From positions 22,209-63,453 of the forward strand of contig NW_014040178.1 of the NCBI RefSeq assembly GCF_001186125.1: 41,245 nt of DNA, in the 5' to 3' direction. Shown here piece after piece: positions 3,801 through 41,245 of this stretch. The DNA is from Sphaeroforma arctica JP610 (taxonomy: Eukaryota). Position 1 is the stretch's first letter. Each line of letters starts with the position of its first letter. The notes beneath the pieces were generated by a model, which saw nothing but the letters and a program-made list of their open reading frames with translations, searched no databases and was not told the origin of the DNA. Made by a program: the position numbers and the translations under genes.

Positions 3801-4022
3801 TATGCCTGCTGGCTTTAATACATTTTTGTTTCTTAGGTCTATGAACTCTGCACAGATTCGTTGCATTCCGGGATTATTGGGTTTGTATTCAGCCCAGGGC
3901 CGAACTATGCCATAAAGTAGTGCATAATGCAGCACCATTTAATTAATCAAATAACTCTAGCGCCGCTCCTGATTTACCCACATATCAACCATATGACACG
4001 TTGATCACATGTATATGAAGGA

Positions 4023-4068
<46 letters not shown>

Positions 4069-4126
4069 TGTGTGTGTGTGTGTCGTGTGTGTGTAGTGTG
4101 CATGAATATATAAGTATATATACAAG

Positions 4127-4165
<39 letters not shown>

Positions 4166-15550: not shown

Positions 15551-15567
15551 ATCTATTCCCTATAGCT

Positions 15568-15940
15568 ACCCCCAACCACGCTCCTCAACCGAATTATGAC
15601 GGATAACCTGGTCCTACTTGGCATTTCTTACTCTGCACTAACCCATTCCACATCACTACACGATAAAGACCCGATCCGAACCACAGAGGTGGGTACGCAA
15701 TTTAGTAGGTCAGAAAGCGAATACGTGGCACACTCGATTGTGTCAGTTTTTTGTCAGCACCGGCCTGAATTGACCCAGTGCATATCCTCCATCGTCGACT
15801 CACTTGGTCCAAGCTTCAACAGGGAATTTACTGACCGCTTCTTCCCATCGATCTTCCCCGAACCACTACAACGGCTATGAGAGCCATACTATAAGTACAA
15901 ACATTGTAACTTAACTCCTTTGAGAAAAAAATATTATCCT
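15568..15940 (+). mobile_element. Short 3' fragment of LINE family A with candidate TSD TATAGCT
   Basis: MTDNLVLLGISYSAL...PSIFPEPLQRL matches the other copies; tatagct at 15561-15567 and 15941-15947. Confidence 0.85.
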
Positions 15941-17039
15941 TATAGCTCCAACTGATGAAACTAGGAAATTCTTTGGAACTGCAGCGTATGAAAAAGGTCG
16001 AACACAAGTTGCAGTACCAACATGTGTGTAAGTATAAATGGATAAACATAAATGTTGCTGCGTTTTTATCTAAGTCAAGTGTGCTTATACATGCAAGAGT
16101 GTCTAGATCCGCGGCTACTTCAACTATGCAGGCCTACGCTAAACTTTGGTACTAACCAGACCTCGACAAATTTATAGTATGCAGTGGGTATTTTGAATGT
16201 GGTCTATATTGTGGCGGGAAAGGTGTACATGTTGCTGCTACAGTGTGGAGTATGACTCAACAGGCATTATGGGCAGATGCCAATGACAATGCTCGTTATG
16301 AGTATGATTCTGTAGTAGCAGCAAACAAAGAGATGGTGGAGAGGGAAATACTTCTGTGCGCTAGTTTACTCTGCAAATCAAAAGTGCCGACGGATAACCT
16401 TACAACAGAGTTTCTAGAGCAAAATGGTCATCGAGAAATCAATGACACTAGCACGACGACAATATAGTCTTACAGGTGAAGTAGCGCGCAATGTGGCAGC
16501 GCAAACGAGTAAAAACTCCGATGCTACAAGTGCCGCTATGAAGAAAGCAGCAGAAGCTACTCGAGTTCTCTTTAAGCTTATAGGTAGTGCAGAAGGACTG
16601 CAAAAAGAATGATCAAACTTTCTTCAATTTGTATGATGAAATTAAAGCAGAGTGCCAATTACAATGAAGGTGTTGTACTAAATAACAGTAATTGATAGAT
16701 TATATCTAGCTAGACAAATAACCTATAGACACAAAGGACCGGACTAAATAATGGAATAGGGAAATTAGTGCGAATCAAACGTCATCATAATGTAGTATCT
16801 AGGAGACAAAAATCTGCGCTACGCTGTATTGACTACACTGATGCCTAAGCAAAGGAGTAGAACGCATGAGATCTCATGTTTAAAAAGTAACCATCGCCGT
16901 CTCTTGCTGTTCATAGTATATGAGTGTCTTTGTTTGAGGAGTTGTGTATATTGGCTTTTTGTCCGTGTTTTGGTAACACTCCTTCAACTCTTACAATATC
17001 CTGTGCGACCGCTCTTTGCGCACCTCTACATCTAGTTTC

Positions 17040-19850
17040 TTGTTCTGGCTCTACACGAATCAAGTGGGTACACCAAACCCTATCTGGTGACAACTATAAT
17101 CGCTGGGATGCCAACTTGTATCTCGCGGCTCTTAGCGACTACGAGTGGGATCTCAATCACATTTTAAACAACTGTAAATTACTTAAACCTCCTTAAAATC
17201 CCTTACGAACCCGCGCGTATTGCTGAAAGCACCATTATATTCCGCAACGCTAAGAAAGCTGTGGGATATTATCGCACCACCAGAAGTCTTCTCATCCGTT
17301 CACTTTTCGATGAACTTTGTGAGACATTCAGCAAAGTAACGATGATGAAAGATACTTGGACCTTCTCAATAGCCTGAGTATTTATTATGACTCATTTACT
17401 TGGACCTATTTGAGACGATAGTAGATGTAGGATATTATAAACTAAATTTTATGTTCTCTGAACTACTACTTACAGGTTTTGGTCTTCCCGCCAATCTCCA
17501 AAATCCAATACGTCTTTTTCTTTTTTTTAACTTTTCTTCAGAAGGAACTTTATTTATATTAGCTAATGTATTAACTTGCTGCCGCTCGCCGTCTCGCCGT
17601 TACACTCGCCTTCAGACAAGTGGCACGGCACCACTGTCCTCCGTATCCCCAACGCACATTATGGCCTTCTGATTGGCCTGTTCAAATTGTCTGGTTCTAA
17701 AATTAAAAGCAAACATAAGTATAGCTTAGCTTTCCCGCAGGTTTCGGTGTTTTCCTTGGACGAGAACCCAACTGCCCACCCGACACCTGGAGAATACAAA
17801 ACTTTGCTACACAACGTTAATTGTGTTCACGCGACGTTCAGCTTCTGCCCGATGAGCTCCCGCGGTAGAATGCATCTGGAAACGGTGCACGCGTTCTAGT
17901 ACTCTCTCAGGTTAAGTTATTCCTTCCAATTGGTATGAACTCGACTCTCCAATCACGGCTGTTGTCCCTTATGTCCCTGCTGCTTCTCCACCTGTCGCCA
18001 TAGATATGACAACGGCTCCTATTCAGCCTGTACCCTCGCTGCCGCCGTCTGCTGCTTCCATGTCAGGTGCCGCACGCGCACCAAGTACCACTGTTATTCC
18101 TTCCTACATATGAGACACACCTAAATGGCCACAAGGAGCCTCCAACCCGTCACACCTAGGACTCCCCGTGAATATCCGCTGCAGCCTGCATTTATCCTGC
18201 CACCAGTAGTTCCTCATTTCAATACCCCACCCCCAAGAGTATAATTACGAACTTCCAAGGCTATCTCGAGGATTGCCGCCGTCAGCGACTTCAGCCTACC
18301 CTCGCTGGACAACGTTCCTTTCCCTCCATCTCATATTCCTGTCAATAACATTTCCACCACCGCTTTCGATGGTTCTTAGTTAAACTACTCGGACACCGAT
18401 AACCCATCAGATTTTTCCGGCTTAATAGCTGATATTCCTACGTCACCGTTCCTGATGACGGAAACAACTCGCCGCAGCAACTTTCGGATCCGTCCGACTC
18501 TTTATTTGACGACGGAGTTAACACTCCTGAGACGTTCGGCGACTACACCGATCAGACTATGACTTCCTAAACTCACCATATCTATTTGTTCGTGTCGCTA
18601 CCACGGATGACATCACTATCCTTACCGTGCAGTATCAAGCAATGCCCGGGCTGCCAGTCTCAAACTCGACGTCTTTCACTTTGTCGTCAATACTGCTTAC
18701 CTCTATTCTTAATTAAATGTCCCAGTCTTCATGCACCCGCCCGCTGGCAGCGTAAAACTCAAATATTACCCCGCAGGTCATGTACTAAAGCTCAAACGGG
18801 GCCTTTATGGCCTCCGTCAAGCTGAACGTCTATGAAATATAGACATCGTTGGTAAACTATCACATTTTTGCTTCCAGCGTACAGACGCCGACAAATCTCT
18901 CTGGTTCCACGATGGCTTCAGAATCTTACTTCTCATCTATGTTGATGAAATTGTACCTGCCGTAACTTGCATGTCTAGACTTGAGCTCTGGCTTTACCGT
19001 GCCCTCAGTCTTCACTACTCTCGCAAGAATCTGGGTTTGGTTCGCCACCTTGTAGGTTTCAGTATTCGTCAATCTCCTTCCTCTGTTACACTCGACCAGA
19101 CGGCTTATGTTGAACACATGCTTGCCACGTTTACTAAAATTGATACCATCCCGAACCATACCCCGGGTAATAGTATTCACCCTGCCTCCCTTGAAGCTCC
19201 AGCTTATCATGGCAAGAACTACCGTCGTCTCCTGGGTGCACTTGAGATTGCCGCTAATTGACCCGAGTTGATATTGCTGCGTGCCTGAATTAACTCGCTG
19301 CTTTTGCTTCAGATCCTAACGAGCTTCATTATAGGGCCCTTACCCGTATTCTTCAATACCTTTCTGTGACAAAACATTGTGCATTGGTTTACAACACGGC
19401 CGCTACCTCTGATGAACTCCTCGCCGTAACACAGATAGTGACTGGGACGGCTGCCACGACAATCGACGTTCCCAATCGGGCACAGTACTATGCTTCAATG
19501 GTACTCCTGTCTTCTGGAAATTCTAGAAACGGAAGACCACTGCTCTCAGCTCTGCCGAAGCCAAATACGATGCCTCCTCTGAATCGGCTCGCAGTATTGC
19601 ATGGTTGAATAACATACTCACAGCCATGCTGTGCGCCTTCTCCCCGCAACGCCTCACTATCCTCCAGGCTGACAATCAATCAGCCATCAAAATTTCTTTG
19701 GGTACTGGTACCCCCAAAGGACTCAAACACAACGCTATTCGTTACCATTACGTTCGTGATTATATTCAGCAAGGCATGCTTATTCTTACGTGCGTCAGTA
19801 CTAATGACAACGTTGTTGACCTTCTTACTAAGTTTCTAGGCCGCGAGATG
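17040..19850 (+). mobile_element. Decayed Ty1/Copia LTR retrotransposon (gag start, SH3-like region, RT, RNase H; integrase core missing)
   Basis: LSGDNYNRW (gag), GVFLG..SRDV (post-integrase SH3-like), LKRGLYGLRQA and LIYVDE (RT), DSDW..RRSQSG, ALSSAEAKY, DNQSAI, KHNAIRYHYVRD, NVVDLLTK (RNase H). Confidence 0.9.
17367..17578. repeat. ~210-bp dispersed repeat, second copy at 39150-39362
   Basis: Direct-orientation near-identical segments (tatgactcatttacttggacctatttgagacgatagtagatgtagg...gctaatgtattaacttg). Confidence 0.9.
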
Positions 19851-20774
19851 CGGTTTTTGTCTTGCATAGTTACTAACTTATTATGCTTCTCATAATTACC
19901 TTAGTTACTGAACAGGGCCATAATTCTGTAAATACATACACACTTTTACTTATATATAAAATTAGAAATGTGAATAAAAGAATAGTTGTTTAAAAAAAAG
20001 TATATGATATTAGACCTGTAATGTCAACCAAGTTTACCTCCGATTTAAAACAATGTTGGTGTTGTAAGCACCGAACTGTTCGGTGATGTTCCTGAGCGTT
20101 AATAAGAGTGCAAGAACTTCTAAGTGTGGGCGATAACTTATAAGTGTGAAAACTAATAAGTTTGAAAAGTTCTAAGTTGTATTGTGCGGTTTGTTGGCAA
20201 ACGGCCGCGCAGACTCGAAAGAAGAGGAGGTTGGTGTACGATTGGTGCTTTGAGAACCGAAGTGCGAGGTAATATGAGCTGGAGGTTGGCAGATGACAAT
20301 ATATGTTGAATGGACTTGTAGGCTCGAAATTGAAAAGATACACGATTTGATTGGCGGCAGGATTCTCAAGGAAATCTTTTGGAGATAGTATAAATACGTG
20401 GCTTTGTTCATTCAAAAAGTTCATTCTGCTAAGGTAGACGTTTATTCAACAACCGAGGAAATAAACCTAAGTTCACCGTTACATTGTGTTTTGAGTCTAT
20501 CTAAGATTACAGACTTTATTAGTCTATCTTTTTTCTTCCCTGTTGCGCCAGTTGAATCTAATAGATATTTTACAAGTACTGGATATTAACAAAATGGCAT
20601 AGAAATTGCTAAGAATAGGTAACTGCATTGCGTTGTAAACTATATAGTGTCTTCACAATTTTCCTTTTTGAAGCAACTGTCTCTTGATAACTTTAGAATT
20701 ATTGAGGTATATAGTAGTTTAGATAGTGCAGGTTTATTTAAGCGTGAACGCACGATTTCTAGCTAAATACTAAT

Positions 20775-23130
20775 TAGGATTAAGGATAGTATTATTTATT
20801 TCAAAAACGATAAGTTACAAAGTTTGTATGTTACAATGTATGATCATATGGTATGGCTCTCATAGCCGTTATAGTGGTTCGGGAAAGATCGATGGGAAGA
20901 AGTAGTCAGTAAATTCCCGTTTGAAGCTTGAGCCAAGTGAGTCGACGATGGAGGATATGCGCTGAATTAATTTGGGCCGGTGCTGATAAATCACTGATAC
21001 AACCGAATGTGCCATGTATTCGCTTGCTGACCTACTAAGTAGCGTACCCACCTCTGTGGTACGGATCGGTGTACGCCGGGTAGTGCCGTGGAATGGGTTA
21101 GTGCAGAGTACGAAATGCCGAGTACGACCAGGTTATCCGTCATAATTCGGTCGAGGAGCGAGGATGGGGGTAAGCCAATGCCGCACCAGACCACGGATGA
21201 ATTCGGTATGTGTTGGCTGGCCTGAATCGGAAGTATCATAGGCGGAACCAACAAGCGCGATGATTTGGTTTGAACCGATATTTGGAAGTAGTACTTCAAC
21301 AGCGTGATTAGCCAGGGTATAGGGAACACCCGTTGATGTGTCAGGAACGGGTGAGGGTACGATGGTTCTTCAACATTCTGGAGAAAAGATCCAAGGTGTT
21401 CGTGGAGGGTCCAGATACCGTGGAAGTCGTGGTACTCCTGTAATTGCTGAAGGAGGTCAGGGCCAATGGGCGGCAGTTTCGGGCCTACCAGGATGCGTCG
21501 AATCAGTTATTGGATGCAGGTAAAGAGGCTGGTAGTGAACTCGTGGGCAGATAGGGCAGAGACAGCCGTCGGTGCGGTAGTCGAGCAATGTGAACATGAA
21601 CGTATTCGTTACAATCATAGCACAGAGCCGGATTGGTGTAGACTCGAAGCATCGATTGAAGCTGTCGTGTCTGGCTGTGTCTCGGTTTGAGGTTGGCGGT
21701 TTACCCATAACCAGTTGGTAGTAGTATTGGCGCCGGGCCATTGCCGCGATCTTCTTGTTGGACCAACGTTTTATTGAGTTCTTCCTGATGTCGTCACAGC
21801 GTTGGCGGAGGGCTACATGGTCGGGTGTACACCCGCCCGTGGTTTTGTGTACAGTTTTTAGGTGAGCATAGATACTGTACGGGAAGCGCAGTGATGGTTT
21901 ATCGTGGGCCCAGGCGGGTTGCGTCAGAGGGGTAAGTGGATTTGTGCTTGCCATTGAGTCGAGTTGTATTCCCAGGCAACCTCCGAGGTAGTCCGCGAAT
22001 GGTCGCGCGGGGAGCAGGCCGCAAAAGTGAAGTAAGTTTGTTTGATGTTTGGGAGACCGAGGGTATTTAGTGCCCGTGATGATGGCTGCTGCTTGGATGA
22101 GTGCTGAGTTAAAGCGCTCGAATAGGGGGTCCAACGCATTCTTCCATATAGGCGGAGCCCAGGCAATAAGGTTCAGCCCATATGTAGCCGTGGATAGGAG
22201 GAATGTTTTGAACATCACCAGTCGGTTGCGGGGGTGTCGCCAGCTGTAGCCATGGAAGCCATAAGCGCGGAAAGAGGCGATACCCAGTGACAATGCTGCA
22301 ACCAGGGATTCCATATGTTTAACGAGGTTGATTCCTGGTACTCCGTGAGAGAGTGGGAACCCCAGGTATTTGGAGTGTTTCGGTTCGGCATGTGTGGGCG
22401 CCAGTTTCAGGAGGAGGTAACGTGTGTTCCAAGGTGCGTCTGCAAACGTCGGCGTGATAAGCTCACCATTTATACAAAGGGTTGGCGCCGCGTGTCGCAG
22501 GTCGGTAGATCGTACTCGGGGTTTAATGACACCCTGTTCGAAGCCAGATTTGCGTCCCCGCGCATCAATGTCATCTAAGAAGGGCTGGAGCAAAATCGAT
22601 CGAGGGGCTTGGATCCGTGTGTCATCGACAAATAAATAAGAGCGGAGGAGCTTGGGCCGAAATTGTGCTAGCGTGACAGCTATGGAATACATGTAGATAA
22701 TAAAGAGCTGGGGGCCGACGATTGAGCCTTGTAAGATGCCATTCGTTCTATGGAATAGAGACAAGAGCGTGCCGCGGTATGTCACTCGGGTAGGGACCCT
22801 CCCAAAGCGTGGGAGAGTGACCTTGTCGTATGCCTTGGTTATGTCCAGACGGACGTCGTTCCACTCCTCTTTTGACTGTGTCTCAGATTCCATGGCGGCA
22901 AGTGCTTGGGTATGACAGGAGTACCGTGATTTGAAGCCAGCTTGGGTAGCATGGGTAGCAGAGCCGGGGTGGCTCGTAATCAGATTAAGAAAGCACTTTT
23001 CAAAGATGCGTCTGACTATTTGCGTAAGCGTGATGGGGCGGAAGTCGGTGGGGGAGGTGATATCTGCATCGGCTTTTTTGGGGTGCGCTGTCAGGAGGCT
23101 GCAGTTAATGGCTGCGAGGAAGGTACCCCG
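20775..23130 (-). mobile_element. Non-LTR retrotransposon (LINE family A), 5'-truncated; RT ORF 21457-22893
   Basis: DFRPITL, QAGF, LDITKAYDKV, GILQGSIVGPQLF, YLFVDD, KYLG motifs of non-LTR RT; small deletion in the zinc knuckle; shared 3' end. Confidence 0.92.
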
Positions 23131-23259
23131 AGGAACTTAAGTTTCCTAAATGTACTCTTAATAGTATGAGGAACTTAAGTTTCCTAAATGTACTCTTAAT
23201 AGTACGCGGAACTTAAGTTTCCTAAATGTACTCTTAATATCACGAGGAACTTAAGTTTC
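23129..23259. repeat. 38-bp tandem repeat, ~3.4 copies, near-palindromic core
   Basis: gaggaacttaagtttcctaaatgtactcttaatagta(t/c) starting at 23130, 23168, 23206, 23244. Confidence 0.95.
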
Positions 23260-23569
23260 ATAAAATGGGTTTTAATGGTTTTATTAATTAATACCTTTTC
23301 TCTTTTACATATCAGATATTTGGACGTGACCATTAAAAAGCCCCAGTAAAATACCAAACATAAGAGTTGGTCTAGTTCTATTAATAGAACTATATTTACT
23401 TTTCAACTTTATTCATATCCGAATACCTCAGTAGCGAGATGGCTCAGCCGAATATAGGTTTCTAGGGACTATTCACGTAGCCTAGTTGATCCTCCGATCA
23501 GCCAACCAGATGTACCAGTCTGATGAAGGCTAAGTCGGTTCACAGTCCATTTCATCCAGTATTCAGAAT

Positions 23570-26500
23570 AAATCATGAGTTCTAACACCACAACGGACAC
23601 GGCACACACAGATCAGTCAATGACTTCTGCTCCGTAGCAAAGAACAAAAGCAGCACAAAGGAGTATACGCACAGAAGTGAGCTCTACTAGCACATACACA
23701 CGAGGAAGCACCAGCTGTACAGCTTGAACTCGACCAGAACAATCGCATACAATGCCAGTGTCACAAGCTTCCTCACGCACTTTTACTCCAAACAATGGGG
23801 AAGGAGCGATGTACATGGATGATGAGCCCACACCAGCAAGAGCACCATTAGATCCAGCAATGAGTAAGTTCAAAGTGGTCATTGACACGACCATTTATGA
23901 TGGCAATGCCTATAGTATATGCATACTGGTATATAAGCTGTATGCACAGAAGTTGACATACAAGCACTCCATAAGCTCCGTAATGCAGTTCACACCCAAC
24001 AACCTAATAGATTGATACCAGAAGTCGATCAGCGGTTATCAAAACTATACAATAAAGCTGTGAAAGGCTGTGATAAAAGTGATCACGATGAGTGTATTGC
24101 AATCAATGGCTTAATGAGCGAGTTAACACTAATTAGATCCCATGTAGGGGATAAAATCTCAGAAACAAAGATGAACAAACTACTCAAGATGAGTGAGTTC
24201 TCTAAGTGGCCAACACACAAGTATGTGAGTATGGCTGATTGTCGTGATACACTTGAGTTTGTATCTGTAGTAAAAGACTTGTTTGCGAACACAAACATGC
24301 CATTGGTACAGTATCTATCACTCGTACAAGAACTGCCCCGACAAACAGCCACAACAGAGGTACCGCGCACAGCACTCAATAATACACGTAGTTCCCAACA
24401 GCTTTGGAAAGACTGCACTGATGGGGAAGTCTACAATATATTAATCATTGACAATTTGCGTCACACTCCAGTAAACTATCTGCTGGAGAAATGGCTCAAC
24501 GACTTCTATAATGCTCGACGAGCAGCACGATTGCGTCGCACAATGCTTGAGCTGGAGAAACGATGCAAGGGCACGGGGAGATAGTCCATTAACATGCAAT
24601 TTCTCAAAGTGTCACGTTATCAGTCACTAGTCATGTATGGACAACAGGCCGAGACTGATAGAATATTGAAGGCGCAAACGAAGCCTGATGGTAGTAGCGG
24701 ACCCTTGTCTGACATATCAGAGAAGATATTCCATGAACTCACTGAAGACTTTGTATCAGACAAGCAACCATAACACATGCTAATCACGATCGGTATCGCA
24801 AACGAGCGAGAACCGCACCCATCCCAGACCAGAGAGTCAATCGTCCAAGACTTGACACACCCCCAGGGGGTCCACCCAGAGAGATGGGTCAACCCAGAGG
24901 GGGGGGGGGCGGGGACCACAAGTAGGACAAGGCCGAGGTCGTCCTATGGGACAGGGTACTTACACCCCAACACCGCGAGGACCACGACCTTGTCCATACT
25001 GCCGTTCAGACCCTTCGTCACATGCGTTTAACAAGTGCCCAAAGAAGAAAGAAAGCAAACGTCAGAAGCAGCAGCTAGGGCAGCGCAGCAATCCCAACCG
25101 ATACATGTAGACCAGTTGACCATTACAAATGGCAACAAGGTGCAAGCGATGGATGAAGAATCTATAAAGCTTGGTGGGCGGAAGTTAATATGGTAAACAT
25201 GGTAGGCATTGTGAATGCACACACTGATGAAAAAACGTTGCTAAGAAATGCAAATGACATTGCTTACCCACCTTATTCTTTACTTTCTAATCCACGAGAC
25301 CAAAGATTGCACATAGACATACAAATGAATGGCACCACATACAACGCACTAGTAGATTCAGGAGCACAACGCTCATGTATGGATCGCAGTTTAGTAACTG
25401 AACTATACTTGTCTGTAAAATCACAACCTGGGTCTACATACAGATCGCACAATCAGATGTACGAGTACAACGCACAGGTTCCACAGACGTGTGTGATATT
25501 ACCTATGGCGGTAGATAAACATCAAACTGCTTTGGGGTACTCGACTTCCCAGACAAGAAATCACCAATCCTTTAGGTATGGATATTTTACCATACTTGGG
25601 CATATATCTAGCTGGGATAATTGATCCACTCAAACCGACATATGCTAAATGGGAATCACTTCTCACACCACATGAAGATGACCCTGAAAATGAGCGAGAA
25701 GGATTCAGAGAATCACTCTCAGACTTATTAGACCAGAACGGCCAGATCCCGCCGGATGTACACTGCAATTTGCCAGGATCGGTAGTGGAGATACCAAGTC
25801 AAGAGGTCAAAGCAAAGAACATTCGTCACGCTAAAGTGAACTTTGTTCCACATAAATACATGCCACAAACAGATGACAATGTTCAAAAATGGGTCAAAGA
25901 CGGGCACATATACAAGCGAATAGCACCCACACAGGCGAATCTACCATTACGGTGTGTACACAAAAATAGCCAACACTTTTAACTTTTTCTTGGAGAGGGG
26001 CACAATACTCATTCAAGTCAACTCCGTTTGGACTCCACTCGCTAACAGCACAATTTCAACGAGTGATGGCCAACCACCTCATCGACATTAAAGGGGTACA
26101 AGTATACGTGGACGACAGTAGAGAAACACAGACAAACAGTACGAGAAGTCATCAAAAGACTTAACGCAGCCAACTTCAGGCTAAATCACAACAAATGTGC
26201 GTTTGCAGTCAAGAAGTCGATATATTAGGCGTCAAAGTTACAACAAAAGGGCTCAAAACAGACCCCGAGAAACAAAACACATGATTGACAGGCTACTGCC
26301 AATAACCAAACGTGACCACATAGAGCAATCTGATTAGTAAACTACATGCAGGACTATATTCCCTAGTTCGCGCATATAACGAAACACTTCCGCAATCTCA
26401 TGAAAGGAAAAATGAATCAGAATATAGCGATTCTTCGGACACCAGAACTCATTAAGAAATAGGAATAACTCAAAGATGTTATTGCATGCTCCGCAATATT

Positions 26501-26600: not shown

Positions 26601-28139
26601 GGGCTTAAAAGGTAACGGTTTGAAATGCGGTACTAGGAGGGGTTGTTGTGTGCTCTCCTGGAAGCTGTGTCGTAGTGTGTCCCGTATTGTGTGGTGATGG
26701 AGCTGAAGATGTCGTGTCCATGGTGGTATTTGTTGAACACTCCCCTGGAATAGAGGTATCGTCAGCAGGTTGATCCTCGATACCGTGTTTGTTTGCAGTG
26801 ATATAGGTTTGCATCTGGCGGGCGCATTGTCTCGTCATTCGCATTTTGTTAGGTAGATGCGGTCCATTGAGCGTGTACAAGTAAGAGACCGCGAAGGGCG
26901 CGTGATTCGGGATGTCGGGCAATGTGGGTTTGTAAAGTGTTGTTAATAGTGTCCTCCTTGTCTGGTGTCGCGGTCGATGGTGCTTGTGCAGTCGATGCAG
27001 TGTCGGGAGTAGGTAGGAGCGTGCGTGGCGTAGCGTATGTGGTTGGTGTGGGCAGGAGGGCGGTTTGAGCAGGTAGAGGATCCTGGTGTGTATCAGCTGA
27101 GATGGTGACATCGTCGGTCTGTGTGCCAACCGAGGAATAGGTAGGTGTTTGTGTCTCGCATGTAGTGTCTTGATCGAGGTGTAACGCCATAGTCAGCTCA
27201 CGGATTATGGGTACGTCCTTTGTGTCTGTGGCAAAGTGTGGGACGGGTGTGTTCCCAACCATAGTCCAAGTCGGAAAGACACGGTAATTGAATTGAACGT
27301 CGCTGGAGTGACATATTTTACCTGTCTTGAGGTTAAGTATTCGGCACTCATCGTGGCCTATATATACCCCAATATTGGCGCGGTCGTCTAGTTTGCCATG
27401 GCGTGACTGATTGATAAATGCTACTCGACATTCAAAGAGGCGCATGTTCTTAATGCGGTCAGTTGGTTTAAACCCCCAGAACACTTCCCAAGAGGATTTT
27501 TGGTCTCAGTTGTGTTTGTTGTCGTGGACAGAGTTCTTGAGAGCTGCGTATTGGATATCTTCGGCCCACATGTTGTCGGGCATCTTGGCTTGCTTCATAT
27601 CGCTGAGTATAATGTCATGTATGACACCATTTGCACGCTCGACTAAGCTATGTAATGCGGGCGTTGCAGTGGGCACGTAGAGTGTTTTTACATGTTCCTG
27701 CGTGTTAACCTTGTTGAATTCTTGAGAGATGAATTCCCCGCCACGGTCACATTTGAGCTCGCGTAGCTGTGCAAGTTTATCCTTCCCGATTTCAGTGTAG
27801 AATTGATCTAGTGCGCCAGTCGCGTCGTCCTTGTGCTGGAGGTTATAGACTAATGTGTAGCCACTGATGGCATCTACGGACTTGATATCACAGGTATAAC
27901 CACTAGGGGTTGTGGGCAAGCCCGTATGTAAGTCAACATGGAAAACGGTTCCAATAGGAGGAAGGTATCGACTCTTTGCTGGTATGTCGGACTGGTCTGC
28001 GGCGCATTTTCCCTTGTACACATGGTGTACAAGAGGTACGGTCTGTCAGGTAAGCGATGGTATCTGCCTCAGCTGTGAGCAGTTCTGCGGTGGGAAAAGC
28101 GGCATGTTTGATGTTGCCAAGTCGTGCTATGCAGATGTA

Positions 28140-28545
28140 GTGCCACTTAGGTAGGCCAACGACATTGCGCCCGTGTTCTAGGAAAGTCTCGAGTATTGTA
28201 CGTATGACCTCCGCATGAGAGTGTAACTGGCGTAGTGTTTGGTTGTAGTTCTTGGTGTTGGGTTGTAGTGGAAACACCGTCGTGACCAGGCCATTTTCAG
28301 TATCGAGCTTGGCTAGAGTCTCACGCCAAGTTTTGCGGCGAAAAGGTATGTTCCCGTAAAGGTGTTTATCGGGTTGATCCCAGGATTGCATAAATGCGTC
28401 TTGGAGTGGTGCGTCATCGGTGAGTCCACAGTACAGGGGTACTTGCGCGTTTTCTGCGTTGGCGAATAAATCGATATCTACTGGTCCAAAGACGTCTGTA
28501 ACATGTCGTTGAAAGAGATCCGGGAGTAGCATCCATTCGTTATGG
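28140..28545 (-). CDS. Dam/DIRS-type N6-adenine DNA methyltransferase-like domain inside the Copia integrase N-terminus
   Basis: NEWMLLPDLF..FGPVDIDLFANAENAQ..YC..DAFMQSW..LYGNIPF..LVTTVFP..TFLEHG..LPKW; uninterrupted frame from WHRRLGH to CTPC. Confidence 0.8.
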
Positions 28546-28638
28546 GAAGGTTTGGTGATTGTAGTAGAGGATATGTTATTAGATCGTAGTGTCTCGGTAA
28601 TTTTGTCGCTATGGCCGAGTCGTCTATGCCAATCCTCA

Positions 28639-28947
28639 GTGGACAGAGTTCTTGAGAGCTGCGTATTGGATAGCTTCGGCCCACTTGTTGTCGGGCATAT
28701 TGGCTTGCTTCATATCGCTGAGCATGATGTCATGTATGACACCATTTGCACGCTCGACTAAGCCAAGTAATGCAGGCGTTGCAGTGGGCACGCAGAGTAT
28801 TTTTACATGTTCCTGCGTGTTCACCTTGTTGAATTCTTGAGAATGAATTCCCTGTCACGGTCACATGTGAGTTCGCGTAGCTGTGCAAGTTTATCCTTCC
28901 CGATTTCAGTGTAGAATTGATCTAGTGCGTCAGTCGCGTCGTCCTTG
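28639..28947 (-). repeat. Duplicate of Copia integrase core segment 27524-27833
   Basis: ~310-bp near-identical direct repeat. Confidence 0.9.
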
Positions 28948-28949
28948 AC

Positions 28950-30000
28950 AATGAGTGGAATAGTGCGTCGGAAATGGCTGAAAACAGTATACATTAGTGT
29001 TGCAAGACTAAAGATTTTGAAGCATTTAGTGATTTGATACCAGTAAATCAGCCACATGTGAAGAAGTATCCTAACTACAAGCTTGCAAACTGTAATATTG
29101 AATCGAATGACACCCAAGCTTTCAGCAGTGCTCAAATTAGTAGAATTCATAGAATGTCTACTATCTTCATGGACCAGGAAGTGATGAAATGTCCCTCCCA
29201 TGTACAATTTTGAAAAGAAGTTCGGCCACTGTAGGTTGTGGAGTACTTCTTTTATTTTCAGTAGTAACAATCTGTCTTGCTCATATTGATAGTGACTTCC
29301 CTAAAGTCAAGGTATTTGCGGTTTTTAGTGGTATGTTCACCTGGGTGTCTTTTTACGTATCTAATTTTTTAATGTTCTCTTCTGTCTTTACGTGCCCATT
29401 TTTTTTAACGTTCTCTTCTGTTTATAGCATGCTGGGTAGTGCTCGCAGTGCCTATTACTCTGGTAAATGTTTAGGTATACTTCTGAATTGATTTTTCAAA
29501 TATCTACATGACATCGAAAGCGATGATGTCATCGTTCACTTTCTAAAAGAGGCTATAATATCAACAGTTATTCGCCATCGTAAGTACGACCTCCCATCTT
29601 ACGGTTCATATGCGTCATACGAGCAAGTACATATCGTTTTTCGAGACTCGAGAAGTTCACGATCACGTCTGGTTATAGGGTAGTGTCTTCCAGTTAGGTT
29701 CGTGAGCTTTCGGTATGGTACATTATTCACAAGGCTCGCAGAAGTGTATGAAAGTATTTATTCGCTTATCCTTAAGGTTGGTACTTTAAGTAGCTCAAAT
29801 ACTTACAGTATTTCCACTATACTATCGTCAGTTGAGAAATCAACCACGGCCTTAGCATTCCCAAGCTGTTTAATAAATCTTGGCTCAGCATGCCCTCGCT
29901 GCATACGCTCAGTGTTACGTGCTGCTTGCGTTAAGATAGTGTCAATTTATTTTTCTAAATATCAATGATTCATCAACACTCAAACTTTTAAACCCTCATA
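28950..30000 (-). mobile_element. Highly decayed Ty3/Gypsy fragment (RT N-terminal part)
   Basis: KIKEVLHNLQWPNFFSKLYMGGTFHHFLVHEDSR resembles the Gypsy RT FSKLDL..GFHQ..V..E.SR motif. Confidence 0.55.
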
Positions 30001-30283
30001 AGGTTCAAGTCAAGCAAGAGACGTTCCTCTACGCTTGCATACACATACGTATGTATCCGAATCGTGCTTGTCTAGCTTTCACTGTATCATAATTGTATAG
30101 TGATGACCTAAGTCGCGCTTACCAGGGTGACGTGGTAAGTGAGTGTCGATATTACGAGGCTCGTACGCCTCATCGAGTTCCATAAGATCATACATTCGTT
30201 CAGGGCTAGGTCTGTCCAAATAATGGTCTGTGACCGCTTCCGAGCAGTATAGGTTGAAACCTGGGTTTCTAGCCCCTTTTCTA

Positions 30284-30356
30284 GTATTAGTAGCACTAGC
30301 GGTTAATTTTCTTGCTGGTAATTGAGAAGGTCCCGGGTTCGAATCTCAATTGTTGA
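30284..30356 (+). pseudogene. Degenerate tRNA-like sequence (tRNA pseudogene or SINE head)
   Basis: A-box-like TAGCACTAGCGG (30291-30302), AGGTC variable loop, B-box GGGTTCGAATC (30335-30345); acceptor and anticodon stems pair poorly. Confidence 0.45.
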
Positions 30357-32037
30357 ATCAGATTTCTTCTTTGATATGGGTTTCAGTGACAGCGGCTATT
30401 TTGCTCCTTCAAGAACTCATCCACGGGACTCTTTTTGCGCCGAGAGTTCAAAGATCCGTCTAGCCGTTCCTGAGGAATGGGGTCCCCAACATCGGCCCCG
30501 ATACCTGTGGCAGTATCCGCAGACTGATGCTTGGCTTTCATATGCCGTCGGATTCGTGTTGATACCTCCATTCGTTGAAGAGTTATAACGTCCCCAACAT
30601 TAAGTTATTTGGCCCCAACATTCAATGAAATAGATACCTTAACACCGCCTAGGAGTTCCGTAGTTTCCGTAGTTGTGCGAAGCTCTGTATCCGAAGAGGC
30701 AGGCTCCAACAGTTCTTCGTCAGGTTTTTTCCTTGACTCGGCTTCTCCTCGACAGTTTCTTCGGCAGGCTTAAATGTCGAAGGACCAGGCGTGTCCTCTG
30801 GGACCTCAGCAGGCTTCGCAGGTTTAGCGCTGGCGGCCACATTCTTCTTATTAGGTGCTGTAGGCATACTTGATACTTGGCTTATCAAACGATAGTTGAA
30901 AATAGTGTTACTCTCGTCAGTTTACAGACAGCTATCGCTACTTTAAATGAGAATATGTAAACTTCAGAGGAAATATTACAAGTTCTATTATGTTGAAATA
31001 AACATTGAAGACCGGTCAAGTTAGTTAGGATTGAGCAGTTGTAGCTTGTGTAAGAATGATCAGGTTTGCCTCTTGGTATAAACCTTAACACCCGCGAGCA
31101 CACGGAACATACCTCTAGCATCTTTACTACTTGTTTTCACAAGAATTACTATGGGTTCATAGCTCACATAGCCTGATTGTACATAGGTGTTGGTGAGAAC
31201 CATGTTAATACTTTAGTAATTATAAATAAAAGTCCTTTTGAACAAAATTTTATAATAAATAGAAAAAGACTTTTCGAATGTTCGATATTGACGAGAGGAC
31301 CAACACTATAAGTAATAGTTCAGACTTCGTACAGTTTATTAATTACATCTGCTATTGTTTCCAAATAGAGTCAAGTATATGAATCTTGCCAAATACTCAA
31401 ACTATATGAGCTATAAAGTGAATTTGGAGCATTTTGGATCTATTGGAGAAATAACTTGTATAATTATTTAAATAGATAAGAACGAATGACTTCTCTTATT
31501 TGATCTTGAAATTTCAATCTAACCGGAGTGTTGAACTTGCTAAACTCTCTCTCTGCTTCTTTTTAGAATATGGGGTATAACTTCTAGTCAATGGCTAATA
31601 AAGTCATTGGCATGTTCGTTTCCAAGGTAGCATACTCTTGGTCTTGTGTGTCATTTGTTTCCTTTAGGGGTTTATTATAATTTCTGAGGTTTTGGTATTC
31701 ATATGTTTTCATGCAGACGTTACAGCATATCTGGCATTTAGTTGATCACGTTTGAAAATATGACCTGAGACATTTTTGTTAGTTTTTTTTGTTTTGTTTG
31801 TGGAATATACTTGTGTGGTACAGAGTGTACTTTAGTATGTCACATTTGTCTGACATTGATTCCATTTACTGCACAGTAATACTGTGACTTTTGAGCCAGG
31901 TAGATTGCAATGTATTTCCGGAGCTATCACTTAATTGGTTTCTAGAGTGACTCTCGAAATCCATCTTGTTCATGTCCTGGGTCATCCTCGTGTGGTGTGA
32001 GTAATGATTCCCGCTTTGCATCTGTTGATGTGAGTGG

Positions 32038-32038
<1 letters not shown>

Positions 32039-32131
<93 letters not shown>

Positions 32132-32228
32132 NNNNNNNNNNNNNNNNNNNNNNNNNNNNNNNNNNNNNNNNNNNNNNNNNNNNNNNNNNNNNNNNNNNNN
32201 NNNNNNNCGGTTCGTTCGTCGTAGTACG

Positions 32229-32282
<54 letters not shown>

Positions 32283-32285
32283 ATA
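32039..32285. repeat. (TA)n/(TG)n microsatellite enclosing an assembly gap (N 32132-32207)
   Basis: Directly visible. Confidence 0.95.
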
Positions 32286-33193
32286 TGCCTATATATGGGA
32301 TACTGCTCATACCTAGTAGTATAGGTGACTTTTTGTCTAGTTTGCTCAGTACTTTGCTGATATGCCCAGTACTTCGAAGCACTTTGAGGTCTTCCGCAAT
32401 CCGTATTCAATGTCATATACTTCAGTCGTGCCTGTCCGTTCGACGCTCGCATCTATTTGTGCCAGTAGTATATAGCCAGTTTGTGTTTGACTGATAGCTA
32501 TTGTTATGTTACTATACTTTATCCATGCACGAGCGTTGTGATTCTGAGTCTACTAGAACACTATATGTGTTTAAGTGTAATCTTTGATCTCGTGGTTTGC
32601 GAAGCAAGGATGAACGTTGGTAGTGATTATATTTCGCCTTTATTCCGCGCATCACTCATGTTAGATTATTCTATCTTCTCTGTAGAATTGGCAGCTTCCT
32701 TAACCAGCGCTGTCACCTTCATGGGGCATTGGTTAGGGTGATGGGAGACAAATATTCCTTTCCATTATGTACAAGCTCGCACTTCTCTTGCCTCTTTCTC
32801 ACCATGAATCTGATGTCGTTCTCTCGGACGTTTGGCGATTGACAGTACTGTATTTGTTGAATGGTTGACGTGCGATATGCTATGTCTCGCCTATACCTTT
32901 ACTGCAACGCGTATACATGCTTCTGAATTATCTAAAAAATACATTTTGCTTATGTTTGGTAAGTGTCTGTCACTTCCACAGGCTTCTTGCTCGCTTTAAT
33001 GATGTCATCTACTTTCTCTTGTTGCCCGTAGCAAGTGAATGCTTTATATCGTGCTACTTTGAGAAGTTGCACATGAATTGACTCTTTGTCTCTGTCTCTG
33101 TATCTCTACTCTAGTATTTTCATCGTTCGATACTTGCGCTCCGTAGGTACATAAATATTCAGTACTTTGTTCTCCATGTCGTTGTGCAACATC

Positions 33194-33459
33194 TCTGGTA
33201 GATAGTCTACAGGATGATGTCTTGGTCTGTCAAAGATGATTCTATTCAAATACTCTTGGTCGGCGGAATCATCTATATCATTGAGTACCCTCTTAGTCTT
33301 ATCTGTCATATCCAATAGTACTCTTTCTGGTAGATAGTCTACAGGATGAAGTCTTAGTCTGTCAATGATGATTCTATCGAGCTGCTATAGGTCGGTGAAA
33401 TTTCATTGAGTACCTCTTTAGTCTTATCTGTCGCGACTGTCTTATTCAATAGTACTCTT
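33194..33459. repeat. Diverged tandem duplication, ~132-bp period, in Gypsy gag
   Basis: tctggtagatagtctacaggatga... at 33194 and 33326. Confidence 0.85.
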
Positions 33460-33591
33460 ACAAGTAATTTCTTCAAATGCAGAACACAATCTGCCAGTAA
33501 TCTTGCCGCACTCTGTATTAGGCGTCCCTTAATACGACATTTAATATATAATGGACATAGAGTTCGATGCAGGCAGTTAGTGGTAGCTGAT

Positions 33592-33783
33592 TGTTGTTAG
33601 ACAAAAGTGGCTTTATTTACACCTCTTCTGAGGGCTTATATACATCACCATTTATTCGCCTATATATTCTGGCGGTGTATGAATCTTTTGGCGGGGTGTC
33701 ATATTTGTTGACACTGACAGTCCTGTGTACCGAACTGTTATTGCATTCCTGATATTCGCATATGATGATTTGTTATAGCCTAA
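33592..33783 (-). mobile_element. Probable LTR (3' LTR of the 33.8-38.4 kb Gypsy)
   Basis: On the - strand: PPT-like AGGGGAG (33786-33792), then TATATAA, AATAAA and a ...TAACA end; no partner LTR found. Confidence 0.5.
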
Positions 33784-33789
33784 TACTCC

Positions 33790-36700
33790 CCTGAAAATGT
33801 CAGAGTGTGAAGAGAGAGAATGCAATCATTGCATTTCATTCTCCCCTGGATTGGTTCTCGACTGTGTCACCATGCTCTGAGGGTACTCCAGTATGCATGG
33901 ACTTAGTGTGGCGCGAGTGTGTAGGGCGAGCGGTATACGGCTGTGCTGACGTAGTCTGCTTTGATGACACCTTCTTGTTCGGGTTCCTTAATCTGATGTA
34001 CCCGTATATTGTAGTTTAGAGCCCTAGGCGCCCTTGCACGATGCATACGCACAGTCTTGAAACCAACCCCATAAACACCTATATGGAAACATCCCGTTCA
34101 CGAAGAACGATTGACGCAAGACACTTTTAGGGTTTTAGGGTTTTCTATATTATGCGCACTAGAACCGTCAATCGGCGTTCCATTTGCGCCTTGTGTGTTT
34201 ATATGGTATGCATTTCTTATATGGCACATGCCCGATACGAGTACTAACGGTTCCATTGCGACATAGCAGAACTTGCTACCGTTATCAGAACATAATACAC
34301 CCATGGTCAGCGAAGACTTGGCAACATAATCCAGCCACATTCTACGTCATCGTGTCCTCTAGAAGATAAAACAAGTCAACCGTGACGTCATATTAAAAAA
34401 AAGTGGCATACGCAACGGCCGCCTGTGTGCTCAGACATAGGCAGGTCAACCATATCAATGTTGACCGTGCGCCATGGGACATCTTTGGCCACTTTCTTAA
34501 GCGGTGCGAGCTCATAACGTATGATCTGTTTAAGCTCACAGTCTATACATGACTGATATACTTTGGCAATCAAAGTTGTCAGCCTGGGATGCGCTATATC
34601 ATTTCGCTTAGCGTTTTCAAGAGCGTCTACTACATTTTGATGCTTCAGCTTACGATTTTACGTCAGCCAAGCGAGAATGTTATAATCATTCTGCTCTCCA
34701 GTATAAAGGTAGGGTGTTGAAAATCCATTTCCGTGTTCTCTACGTCTGTAGCGTTTTCAATCTTGTAGTGTTTTCAGACTCCTTTCCTCCTTTTGTTTGT
34801 GCGGCTTTAGTGCGCTCGTATACATTAGCCACACTCGACTAATTTAATAGTCGCATAATGAGTGTGTATACTCCAGGATTATCTTTCATTAATTCCTTTA
34901 GAAAAAGTCACTGAAAGACTTCGGGCTTCGACTTTTATGTTCTTAAATACAGTACAAGCTAGAGATTGACGCTTCTTGCCTGCAGTGCCAGTAGTAGATT
35001 GTATTCCTTGTGCACAGACTTCACGTGCTGTATTGCCCTTGCACTGATTTATATTCTATTTGTTGGAGGGTGAAATCTCCGACTCTGCGATCTTTTTAAG
35101 AAAGGTCTCAGATGGTGTCCTTGAGGTTGTTCCTTTTGGATGTCTCCAGTGCGTCTTTTGGATTGCTCGGGTACCCTGATCGAGGAAGGAATCTACTTTC
35201 CTATCTAGATATATTGGCTCGCATTGTACCTTGCTTATTAATTTATTGAGCCACGGAACTAATTTCCGTAAGGAGTAACGCAACATTATGGTGGCTTTGT
35301 GTGTATATATGAGCGTATTTTAATAACTGGGCAATTAACTGCCATGGTGGATTGGCCCACGCATTATGTTTAGAGATATCTATTTGAAAAGCTTCTCCTA
35401 AGGATGATTAAATGTTCTATATTATGGTGTGCAACAAACATATCGATTTAATGTGGCCAAACTATATTTTCAGCCAGCTCGAACCATCGTGGATTACACT
35501 TCTAATCGGTGGCGATGAGCTCTCGTACTTATTAAACCTGGAAAATATATCTGGAAAATTGTTATGCATTTCGGGTAAATGTTCTATATCAAAGTGGAAC
35601 TTAGAAGTTATGTCATCCCATATATTAAGTAACTGAGGGTCTGGCTTCATCTCTTTCATATAACGAAGAGACTTTGGTTACGCATCAGCGTAGAAGCTGT
35701 TCCATAGAGAAAATCTTTAAAGTGTGTCCTAGCTGTAACAATAACTAGTAATTATTGTTTAACAGTTGAGTAATTCAACTGTGATGAAATTCATAACTCG
35801 ACTAAAGAGTTGTATTCAACTCGGTTTGTTATCGATAACCTGATGTAGTACTCCTCCAAGTGCTAAGTCGGAGGCGTCGGTTGCTATTTCGAATGGCACA
35901 TCATCCACTGGCCCTTGTACTCAAAATGCCTCATCACACTCCTTAGTCCACAGTTCTCCTAACATATTTTTTTGTGACATCTTAATAGTCCGAAAGATTT
36001 TAAGTAATCTGCTAGGTGTGGTACTCTATCTGAAAAGGAGTTTACAAGCCCACACATACTATTGATATCTTCCCCAGTAGTTGTTGTTTGCCAACCTAGG
36101 ATATGTTCTACCTTTCTGAGGTCAATTTTTATACCTTCTCCGGATACGATATCCTGAAAGTTGTATTTCACTCATAACGAAAAGATATTTCATCTCGTTA
36201 ATCATGAAATTTTGTACGTTGAGTCTTTGAAGGACTTTCCTTACTATTGCAGCGTGATCTTGCTTAGTCTTTAGAAAAATGACTGTGTCATCGATATAGA
36301 CTTGAACGTTAGGCTGTCTGCAAACATTTCTTCCACTACTTGTTGGAAGAACGCAGGTAAAGAGTGTAACACAAAAGGTGCTCTTTTGAAACGTTATAGG
36401 TTCCTCTTCCATAATAAAATAAAGTATTTACGATGTGGCTCATATATCTTCATTTGATGTTATCTTTCTGTCAGGTCTATAGTTGTAAACACTGTAGCGC
36501 CTTTCATTATCTTTGATAACTCGGTTTGTATGCGGTAAGTGAAGGCTAGGAATAGGCAAAAATTTATTCATTGTGCTCATATCTAAACACACTCTGCCCT
36601 TCTTATTCTTAAATGAACCGTCAGAGTTATGTTAGTCAGCATCTAGTAACACCAAGCTAACTGGCGTTTGTTGATAGTTCATTCTATCTCTCTATCTGCT

Positions 36701-39909: not shown

Positions 39910-41188
39910 CCTCGTGCGTTAGACATGAATTACTGGTTGTAGCATTGTCCCAGGGTATCGCCCCTTTCCGCGCTTATGACTTCCATGGCTTCAGCTGGCG
40001 ACACCCCCTCAACCGACTGGTGCTGTTCACCCGACCATGTAGCCCGTCGCCAACGCTGTGACAACATTAAGACAAACTCAACAAAACGCTGGTCCAACAA
40101 GGAAATCGAGGTAATGTCCCGGCGCTAGTAGTACTACCGACTGGTCATTGGTAAACCACCAGCCTCAAATCGGGACAAAGCCAGACACGACAGCTTCAAA
40201 CGTTACTTCGAGCCTACACTAATCCGGCTCTGTGCTATGATTGTAACGAATACGTACATGTTCATATTGTTCGACTATCGCACCGACGGCTGTCTCTACC
40301 ATGTCTGCCTTGGTGGCCACAGATTCACCACCAGCCACTTTAGCTGTATTCAATAATTGATTTGATGCATCCTGGTAGGCTCAAAACTGCCGTCCATTGA
40401 CCCTGACATCCACCAGCAATTGCAGGAGCGCCACGACTTCTACGGTATCTGGACCTTCCACGAACACCTTCCTCAACACGATGGCTAGCAATACGCCGCC
40501 TCAGCTTTCTACGACGGACTCTTCAACGACAGGCAATGATATAAAAATGGCTGACATCGTCAAAGAGGAGAGCCCAGTAGTATTGACCGATGATGAACAA
40601 TGTTAGGACCAATGAGGATGACGCTCTTCAACCCACAAGGACTCAATATGGACAACGCAGCACATACAGATAAGTGTTTGAACGTTATATCGATTTTAAG
40701 TCAGGTTGATGTTATGTGTGTGGTTGAAACCTGGCATAACACCACATTTCTTAATTATATACACTCGAACACACGCTATCATATACAACATCACACTACA
40801 CGGCATAATATCTTACACCCTTCACACTGTGGTATTGGTATCTTTTCCAAACACCACCCATCGAATTTTCAACTTGTACACTCTTCACCGTACGCGGTGT
40901 TCTTTGTGTGCTTTGGCGTTCATATGGCCGTGTTCTACTTCCACTCAAATCGCTTACTGAAGAAGACGTCAGGCGATACATTAATCCCCCCGAGATTGGT
41001 GGTTTCCAACCAGATGTCGTGTGGGGAGATTTCAACTTCAAAGCTCGGAAGTATGGCCATGTATCTACAAATCACGGACTCCCATCAATCTTTCCTGAAC
41101 CACTACAGCGACTATGAGAGCCATACCATATGTTCATACATTGTATCATACATACTTGCCATTTTTGAAATAAACAATATTATCCCTA
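39910..41188 (+). mobile_element. Rearranged LINE family A copy containing an ORF1-like tail and an APE endonuclease
   Basis: 39910-40470 matches the RT C-terminal region; 40600-41070 has LFNPQGL, VVETWH, GIGIF, VWGDFN (APE family); 41080-41188 is the family 3' end. Confidence 0.85.
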
Positions 41189-41245
41189 ATGCCTTAGAAT
41201 AAATAAATGCGAACGTAAATTCTAAATATAGTGTAAAATCGATAT

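What the first reader, a model, noticed from the sequence alone, without database searches (positions are those of the whole stretch)
28010..35490. Candidate system: integrase-coupled 6mA modules shared by Copia and Gypsy in one host
Seen: two unrelated LTR superfamilies ~7 kb apart both hold the same MTase class at the integrase N-terminus, in different positions. Their C-terminal tails are similar (Copia ETFLEHGRNVVGLPKWH; Gypsy DSFLDQGTRAIQKTHWRH). Inference: independent capture or exchange between co-resident elements, favoured by host biology. If the host marks active chromatin with 6mA, as several unicellular eukaryotes and early-diverging fungi do at ApT, new insertions could pre-mark themselves to evade silencing. 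Alternatively the fold could read DNA to steer integration, analogous to chromoviral chromodomains. The function is speculation; the co-occurrence is observed.
Basis: inference. Interest (0 to 1): 0.85.

Follow-up and report, generated by a model that had tools for sequence, protein, structure and literature searches.

The report
Methyltransferase nested inside Copia integrase
Two broken retrotransposons here each carry an adenine-methyltransferase domain: the Gypsy one belongs to a kind described in 2026, while the Copia one has the domain inserted inside its integrase zinc finger, an arrangement we did not find in print, which would likely carry the enzyme to each new insertion.

Summary
Both domains are real Dam-like (PCIF1-clade) N6-adenine methyltransferases in decayed LTR relics, likely of an ichthyosporean host.

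The Gypsy one follows RNase H and groups with an Abeoforma element. This scan met a Gypsy case before on other DNA.

The Copia one is absent from that preprint's main text. It sits in frame between the His and Cys pairs of the integrase zinc finger. Seven Sphaeroforma arctica proteins on separate contigs, in three subfamilies, carry the Copia-type domain. A relative only 30% identical has almost the same His-to-Cys spacing (194 against 193 residues). One segment shows purifying selection between subfamilies, but near copies decay neutrally.

The two window domains are only 16.5% identical, and the shared tail is common to LTR-type domains. Direct exchange between these neighbours is therefore not supported (AU p=0.036). 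A third, inverted Copia-type fragment lies inside the Gypsy integrase.

Likely mechanism, untested: integrase-tethered methylation of new copies. A binding role or an RNA substrate remains open. Verdict: new variant of a known kind.

The parts
27936..28709 (-). Open frame holding the Copia GAG-pre-integrase His pair, the inserted methyltransferase and the Cys pair of the integrase zinc finger
   Evidence: gag_pre-integrs E=0.0022, Dam E=0.0037; His 28/33, Cys 227/230
28098..28544 (-). Dam-like/PCIF1-clade N6-adenine methyltransferase domain, SAM-side motif DLFA, catalytic-side motif NIPF
   Evidence: 99.7 bits; model pLDDT 83.5; best fold match PCIF1/CAPAM Z 11.6, rmsd 3.1, 140 aligned
27506..28045 (-). 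Copia integrase catalytic core, in a shifted frame
   Evidence: rve E=1.3e-4; best PDB hit a 635-aa integrase, 7z0h_W, E=1.8e-5; recalled as Ty1 integrase
26849..27505 (-). SH3-like integrase C-terminal domain and linker; no RT found downstream
   Evidence: (SH3_retrovirus E=1.1e-9)
28639..28947 (-). Duplicate of the integrase-core end (94.5% to 27524-27833) standing where the protease should be
   Evidence: a different upstream sequence in another copy, table 7
33992..34126 (+). Third, Copia-type methyltransferase fragment with two stops, inverted inside the Gypsy integrase
35140..35513 (-). Decayed Gypsy methyltransferase (DMF and NPPW motifs), three frames
   Evidence: (77.0 bits)
35537..36520 (-). 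Decayed Gypsy RT and RNase H directly upstream of the methyltransferase
   Evidence: RVT_1 E=1.2e-7, RT_RNaseH_2 E=4.7e-6
34130..34650 (-). Very decayed Gypsy integrase (CxxC and first catalytic Asp region)
   Evidence: tblastn with the P0007 integrase, E=0.014 only; no Pfam hit

Best explanation
A Copia lineage carries an adenine-methyltransferase domain inserted in frame inside its integrase zinc finger, so the enzyme would stay on the mature integrase and likely methylate the element's own new DNA copy, which the host's 6mA maintenance would then keep in active-type chromatin. SHOWN: the domain, its fold, its position in several subfamilies, and past purifying selection on one segment. INFERRED: (a) protease cannot free the domain without destroying the zinc finger, so it travels with the particle and the integration complex; (b) the compact domain lacks a target-recognition part and would get its substrate by being tethered to the cDNA; (c) it was likely acquired from a Gypsy-type DAM-LTR, not from the neighbouring Gypsy relic; (d) activity and host AMT1 maintenance are taken from the preprint's model and are untested. 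The Gypsy relic is an ordinary decayed member of the known ichthyosporean DAM-LTR lineage. The two elements do not form one system.
For: ARCHITECTURE. His-to-Cys spacing is 193 residues in the window and 194 in P0008, which is only 30% identical. The usual spacing is about 23-32 residues (recalled). His pair then domain: P0003, P0006, and in part P0031. Domain then Cys pair: P0004. Integrase core after the domain: P0003-P0005. Seven S. arctica proteins lie on contigs of seven different lengths. The P0006 N-terminus matches the Copia protease Pol_BBD (Atlas structure TM about 0.7), giving the Copia order protease then integrase. FOLD. Model pLDDT 83.5; the top matches are mostly adenine methyltransferases. 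SELECTION. Window domain against the third fragment: pS 0.87, pN 0.21 over 32 sense codons; 24 of 38 differences at third positions. ORIGIN. All 12 LTR-type domains form one branch (92/88); Copia A+B (99/97*) lie next to Gypsy P0007 (93/76), which shares NIPF. HOST. The preprint reports 6mA after transcription starts in S. arctica and more methylated DAM-LTR copies.
Against: No activity has been shown for any such domain: heterologous expression in dam-minus E. coli gave no 6mA, and Iyer et al. judged DIRS1 versions likely inactive. The Copia motif departs from NPP[FYW] in all three subfamilies (NIPF, NQP, NPIW). The best fold match is an RNA cap methyltransferase. The model does not show the zinc finger re-forming (residues 1-28 have pLDDT about 45-50). 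Near copies differ neutrally (11 of 40 listed differences synonymous against about 26% expected, one stop; 22 more were not shown), so no active copy is in evidence. No intact element and no RT in cis was seen. A Gypsy donor is not proven: Gypsy-only monophyly is not rejected (p=0.098 and 0.216), and bootstraps had not settled. The codon test covers 34 codons of a segment first found by protein similarity.
Confidence: 0.5

Rival explanations
1. The domain is a non-catalytic or weak binder. On the integrase it steers integration (to 6mA or ApT linkers, or to the transcription machinery) or holds the element's nucleic acid, in the manner of a chromodomain.
For: The catalytic-side motif is altered in all Copia subfamilies. 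There was no activity in E. coli. Iyer et al. proposed inactive, RNA-binding or PCIF1-mimic roles for DIRS versions. An obligate place on integrase suits targeting.
Against: The SAM-side DLF motif and the Asn of motif IV are kept across subfamilies only 30-50% identical. NIP[YF] is a working motif in Erm-type enzymes (recalled). The preprint's enrichment is of 6mA on the elements themselves.
Confidence: 0.22
2. The domain is active on RNA or on RNA-DNA hybrids inside the particle (cap-adjacent or internal m6A on the genomic RNA), aiding RNA stability or reverse transcription rather than marking chromatin.
For: The best fold match is PCIF1/CAPAM at Z 11.6, above T4 and E. coli Dam at 8.7. KsgA/Erm-type RNA enzymes fill the Foldseek list. 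There was no activity on E. coli DNA. In DIRS and Gypsy the domain follows RNase H.
Against: A shared fold does not show the substrate. Relocation into integrase points to the DNA stage. DAM-LTRs track AMT1-bearing hosts, 9 of 13 species.
Confidence: 0.16
3. One reading: the two neighbouring families exchanged the domain directly and form a shared module in this host.
For: Both domains fall in the LTR-type branch. The inverted Copia-type fragment inside the Gypsy shows that DNA of one family can end up in the other.
Against: 16.5% identity, lowest of 59. AU p=0.036 against an exclusive clade. The Gypsy domain groups with Abeoforma P0037 and P0011 (98/88*). The fragment is antisense and broken.
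Confidence: 0.07
4. The domain is a chance insertion into a dead Copia copy and had no function there.
For: Near copies decay neutrally, and the region holds nested fragments.
Against: It is in frame at the same place in subfamilies 30% identical, and pN is far below pS between subfamilies.
Confidence: 0.03

Closest known systems
DAM-LTR retrotransposons, ichthyosporean lineage (Fernandez-Moreno et al., bioRxiv 10.64898/2026.05.21.726589; whole main text read, figures and supplements not seen)
   Same: Same domain family. The window Gypsy has RT-RH-DAM-integrase order and groups with an Abeoforma whisleri protein. Same proposed link to host 6mA and AMT1.
   Different: The preprint names only Ty3/Gypsy-like recipients; copia, Ty1 and RVT_2 occur 0 times in its main text. 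Here a Copia lineage carries the domain, inside the integrase zinc finger rather than between domains.
DIRS1-type retrotransposon MT domain (Iyer et al., PMC4738411, passages read)
   Same: Same family; most of the 75 hits are RT-RH-MT proteins or free MT domains.
   Different: Tyrosine-recombinase elements, with the domain after RNase H and a tail usually 2-3 residues longer. No AMT1 association in the preprint.
PCIF1/CAPAM cap-specific adenosine methyltransferase
   Same: Best structural match (Z 11.6, rmsd 3.1, 140 aligned, 14% identity).
   Different: A cellular RNA enzyme recruited to RNA polymerase II by a WW domain. The Copia domain is a bare core on an integrase.
Chromovirus chromodomain integrases and DNMT-bearing retrotransposons (as summarised in the preprint's introduction; PMC5890265 seen only as a listing)
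   Same: An epigenetic module captured by a retrotransposon polyprotein.
   Different: Chromodomains are appended at the integrase C-terminus (recalled; also P0007). Here the module splits the N-terminal zinc-binding motif.

Membership tests
Eukaryotic DAM-TE methyltransferase family | Dam-like domain (PF05869-related) grouping with retrotransposon DAMs | tested here: met
   below the Pfam cut-off; 99.7 and 77.0 bits
Eukaryotic DAM-TE methyltransferase family | Asn-Pro-Pro catalytic triplet | tested here: inconclusive
   Gypsy NPPW met; Copia has NIPF, NQP, NPIW, with Asn kept and a Pro changed; effect on activity unknown
Eukaryotic DAM-TE methyltransferase family | Adenine methylation activity | not testable with these tools
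   not shown for any member in the preprint
Ichthyosporean DAM-LTR (Gypsy relic) | Ty3/Gypsy RT-RH with DAM, no chromodomain | tested here: met
   RVT_1 and RT_RNaseH upstream of the domain, no chromodomain hit in the decayed downstream frames; decay weakens the absence
Ichthyosporean DAM-LTR (Gypsy relic) | DAM in one clade with Abeoforma/Pirum/Sphaeroforma elements | tested here: met
   98/88* with Abeoforma P0037 and P0011; 91/87 in the 28-row tree; Pirum not sampled
Ichthyosporean DAM-LTR (Copia element) | Ty3/Gypsy organisation | tested here: not met
   protease directly before integrase, GAG-pre-integrase, SH3_retrovirus
Ty1/Copia | Order protease then integrase, with Copia-type protease and GAG-pre-integrase | tested here: met
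   in relatives P0006 and, by alignment, P0008 and P0003; the window copy has lost the protease
Ty1/Copia | RVT_2 reverse transcriptase downstream of integrase | tested here: inconclusive
   none in cis in this truncated copy; a separate RVT_2 relic lies near 18650-19890 (+); the relatives are short gene models
Ty1/Copia | LTRs, primer-binding site, target-site duplication | tested here: inconclusive
   no LTR pair around either relic among the repeats found; no genome held
AMT1-bearing host with ApT 6mA | Host encodes AMT1 and marks active genes | not tested
   no genome held; rests on the preprint's S. arctica methylome and on the inferred host

The most novel reading that the evidence does not exclude
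Ty1/Copia is a third retrotransposon class to have captured the DAM module, from a Gypsy-type donor. It did so by threading an active methyltransferase through the integrase zinc finger, making a single integrase-methyltransferase enzyme that writes the host's active mark on each new copy as it integrates.
Probability: 0.35. Interest if true: 0.75.

Novelty: new variant of a known kind. Interest (0 to 1): 0.5.

Why it matters
DAM capture was described for DIRS and Gypsy elements only. A Copia lineage would show the module crossing LTR superfamilies in a 6mA host, which strengthens the case that it is selected. Its position is informative. A domain that cannot be cut away from integrase favours action on the DNA copy or at the target site over action by RT-linked routes, a question the preprint leaves open. 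It is testable now with the public S. arctica nanopore methylome named in the preprint. If these Copia families fell below that study's screen (inferred from their weak Pfam scores, E 1e-5 to 5e-3, and its RVT_1-based classing), they may sit among its 'non-DAM LTR' controls.

Tried and rejected
GENOME AND DATABASES
- No whole genome was held, so no census, no AMT1 search and no intact copy.
- Word-index protein searches gave 0 hits, 1 hit, and only two already known proteins.
- Viral contigs: no relative in 3 scans.
- Metagenome contigs: one locus, L001, a 30-residue match in bacterial-looking genes, rejected as chance.
- No Copia-type DAM outside S. arctica turned up among the 20 of 75 hits whose source I looked up. 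The rest were judged by domain content only, so this is weak evidence of a narrow range.

STRUCTURE
- The single-sequence fold of P0008 failed (pLDDT 30.7) and was not used.
- The Atlas feature search of the window protein gave only low scores (0.78).

EXPRESSION AND COPY NUMBER
- No RNA holder was listed; this is no evidence on expression.
- Contig depth over the Gypsy domain is far above unique DNA and over the Copia domain only a few-fold. The tool states that this is no copy number, so it is a hint only.

TESTS
- Copia monophyly including P0008 is neither recovered nor rejected (p=0.295).
- Tail similarity as evidence of exchange: rejected.
- A Cys/His-rich stretch between the Gypsy domain and its integrase gave no Pfam hit.

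LITERATURE
- Six paper searches listed no paper whose title or abstract start reports a Copia-borne adenine methyltransferase. Only three papers were opened. Subscription journals and the preprint's supplements could not be seen.
Full report
CONTEXT. No genome is held for the window. The right half of the window is a field of decayed retroelements: a non-LTR RT, a Copia RT relic, a second Gypsy, and the two elements in question. The nearest relatives of the Copia domain are all Sphaeroforma arctica proteins, so the host is likely this ichthyosporean or a close relative (inference).

THE COPIA ELEMENT. The frame 27936-28709 (-) holds WHRRLGH, then a Dam-like domain (DLFA, NIPF), then CTPCVQGK. 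Pfam gives GAG-pre-integrase E=0.0022 and Dam E=0.0037, both under their cut-offs. The integrase core (E=1.3e-4) follows in another frame, then SH3_retrovirus (E=1.1e-9). The domain therefore lies between the His and Cys pairs of the integrase zinc finger, 193 residues apart; the usual distance is about 23-32 (recalled). The copy is truncated. A 310-bp duplicate of the core end stands upstream, and no RT follows. A loose end, read by hand, suggests that another copy has a linker like that of P0003 at this place.

IT IS A FAMILY, NOT AN ACCIDENT. A phmmer search of 1.84 billion representatives gave 75 hits at E<=0.001. I looked up the source of 20 of them. Seven are S. arctica proteins on contigs of seven different lengths, one is from Abeoforma whisleri, and the rest are unnamed or metagenomic. 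The seven fall into three subfamilies: A (P0002-P0005, with the window), B (P0006, P0031) and C (P0008). P0008 is 30% identical, yet has the His pair, the domain and the Cys pair in one frame with 194 residues between them. The N-terminus of P0006 matches Copia protease (Pol_BBD) models at TM about 0.7, which gives the Copia order. The best solved match of the window core is a 635-aa integrase, recalled as Ty1. No relative shows RT in cis; all are short gene models.

FOLD. With a 50-sequence alignment the model has mean pLDDT 83.5. The domain is confident and the His segment is not. Foldseek returns KsgA and the cap adenosine methyltransferase. VIA-align ranks PCIF1/CAPAM first (Z 11.6, rmsd 3.1, 140 aligned), with T4 Dam and E. 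coli Dam at 8.7. This agrees with Iyer et al., who place the DIRS1 domain in the PCIF1 clade and think it likely inactive (PMC4738411, passages).

THE GYPSY ELEMENT. RT and RNase H relics run to 35537. The domain follows at 35513-35140 in three frames with stops, and scores 77.0 bits on a profile of six relatives. The integrase lies about 500-600 nt further on and is barely recognisable (E=0.014; no Pfam hit). An inverted 135-bp Copia-type domain fragment interrupts it at 33992-34126. It matches P0003 at 74% over 34 residues.

RELATIONSHIP OF THE TWO. The tree has 60 rows: the two window domains plus 58 hits, namely those covering at least 95 of 143 profile positions and the partial P0003 and P0006. 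Shorter ones (including P0004, P0005, P0031, P0066) and a duplicate were left out. All 12 LTR-type rows form one branch (92/88, unstarred). The window Gypsy joins Abeoforma P0037 and P0011 (98/88*). Copia A+B (99/97*) sit next to the metagenomic Gypsy P0007 (93/76). P0008 is a long, unplaced branch. The bootstrap had not settled. The other rows are DIRS-like or unclassified by domain content. On a 28-row subset, AU tests gave: Copia A/B plus window Gypsy, p=0.036; all Copia, p=0.295; Gypsy-type only, p=0.098 and 0.216. Direct exchange between the neighbours is thus disfavoured, and a Gypsy-type donor is likely but not proven. The two window domains are 16.5% identical, partly through decay of the Gypsy copy. 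The quoted tail has the same length and pattern in other LTR-type domains.

SELECTION. Between the window Copia domain and the third fragment, pS=0.87 and pN=0.21 (32 sense codons of 34; 24 of 38 differences at third positions). The segment was found by protein similarity, which biases this test somewhat. Among near copies in public contigs, 11 of 40 listed differences are synonymous against about 26% expected, with one stop; 22 further differences were not shown. The domain was selected while the lineage was active; the sampled copies are dead.

WHAT IS KNOWN. bioRxiv 10.64898/2026.05.21.726589 (whole main text read; figures and supplements not seen) describes DAM-LTRs, including a Gypsy-like ichthyosporean lineage in S. 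arctica. It reports an AMT1 association in 9 of 13 species, more 6mA-marked copies and higher expression, and no activity in E. coli. It never mentions Copia, Ty1 or RVT_2; its supplements may still hold such elements. PMC12695648 (passages) supports 6mA on active genes in ichthyosporeans. Six searches listed nothing on a Copia-borne domain. One earlier scan note describes a Gypsy case in another genome and names the same preprint, which I had already found.

MECHANISM. Shown: an N6-adenine methyltransferase-fold domain embedded in Copia integrase and conserved across subfamilies. Inferred: it cannot be cleaved off, so it is carried with the cDNA into the integration complex. As a bare core it likely relies on this tether, and likely seeds 6mA that host AMT1 keeps (0.5). 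Rivals: non-catalytic targeting or binding (0.22), RNA or hybrid substrate (0.16), direct exchange between these neighbours (0.07), neutral insertion (0.03).

VERDICT. The Gypsy half is known. The shared-system reading fails. The Copia integrase-embedded form is a real addition: a new variant of a known kind, interest 0.5.

Noticed in passing
window 33992-34126 (+): Inverted, broken Copia-type methyltransferase fragment inside the Gypsy integrase; how it got there is unexplained.
   Followed up: partly
window 28639-28947 and 27524-27833: 310-bp duplication of the Copia integrase-core end (94.5%), replacing the protease region.
   Followed up: partly
window about 34940-35030 (-): Cys/His-rich decayed stretch between the Gypsy methyltransferase and integrase; could be a zinc finger. 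No Pfam hit.
   Followed up: partly
proteins P0007, P0051, P0066, P0015, P0057: Metagenomic LTR-type proteins carry the domain at other positions: between RNase H and integrase with a chromodomain, after the chromodomain, and before a protease-like region (the last read by eye). The domain seems to move freely within LTR polyproteins.
   Followed up: partly
window 21457-23136 (-), with related pieces at 13663-14710, 15567-15945, 39917-40470, 41063-41190: Non-LTR-type RT (RVT_1 E=1.3e-15) in several copies; the ORF at 40597-41202 (+) looks like an endonuclease by eye.
   Followed up: no
window 23937-26400 (+): Second Gypsy relic (protease, RT) with no methyltransferase piece detected in the six-frame scan.
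   Followed up: partly
window 18650-19892 (+): Copia RT (RVT_2 E=4e-18) and likely RNase H relic; link to the DAM-bearing family unknown.
   Followed up: partly
window 23091-23279: Tandem repeat of 38-bp period, about 4-5 copies, next to the non-LTR RT.
   Followed up: no
window 8184-9146 (-) and 1316-7756 (+): Host genes: a two-PDZ protein and exons with a WD40-like repeat (by eye).
   Followed up: no
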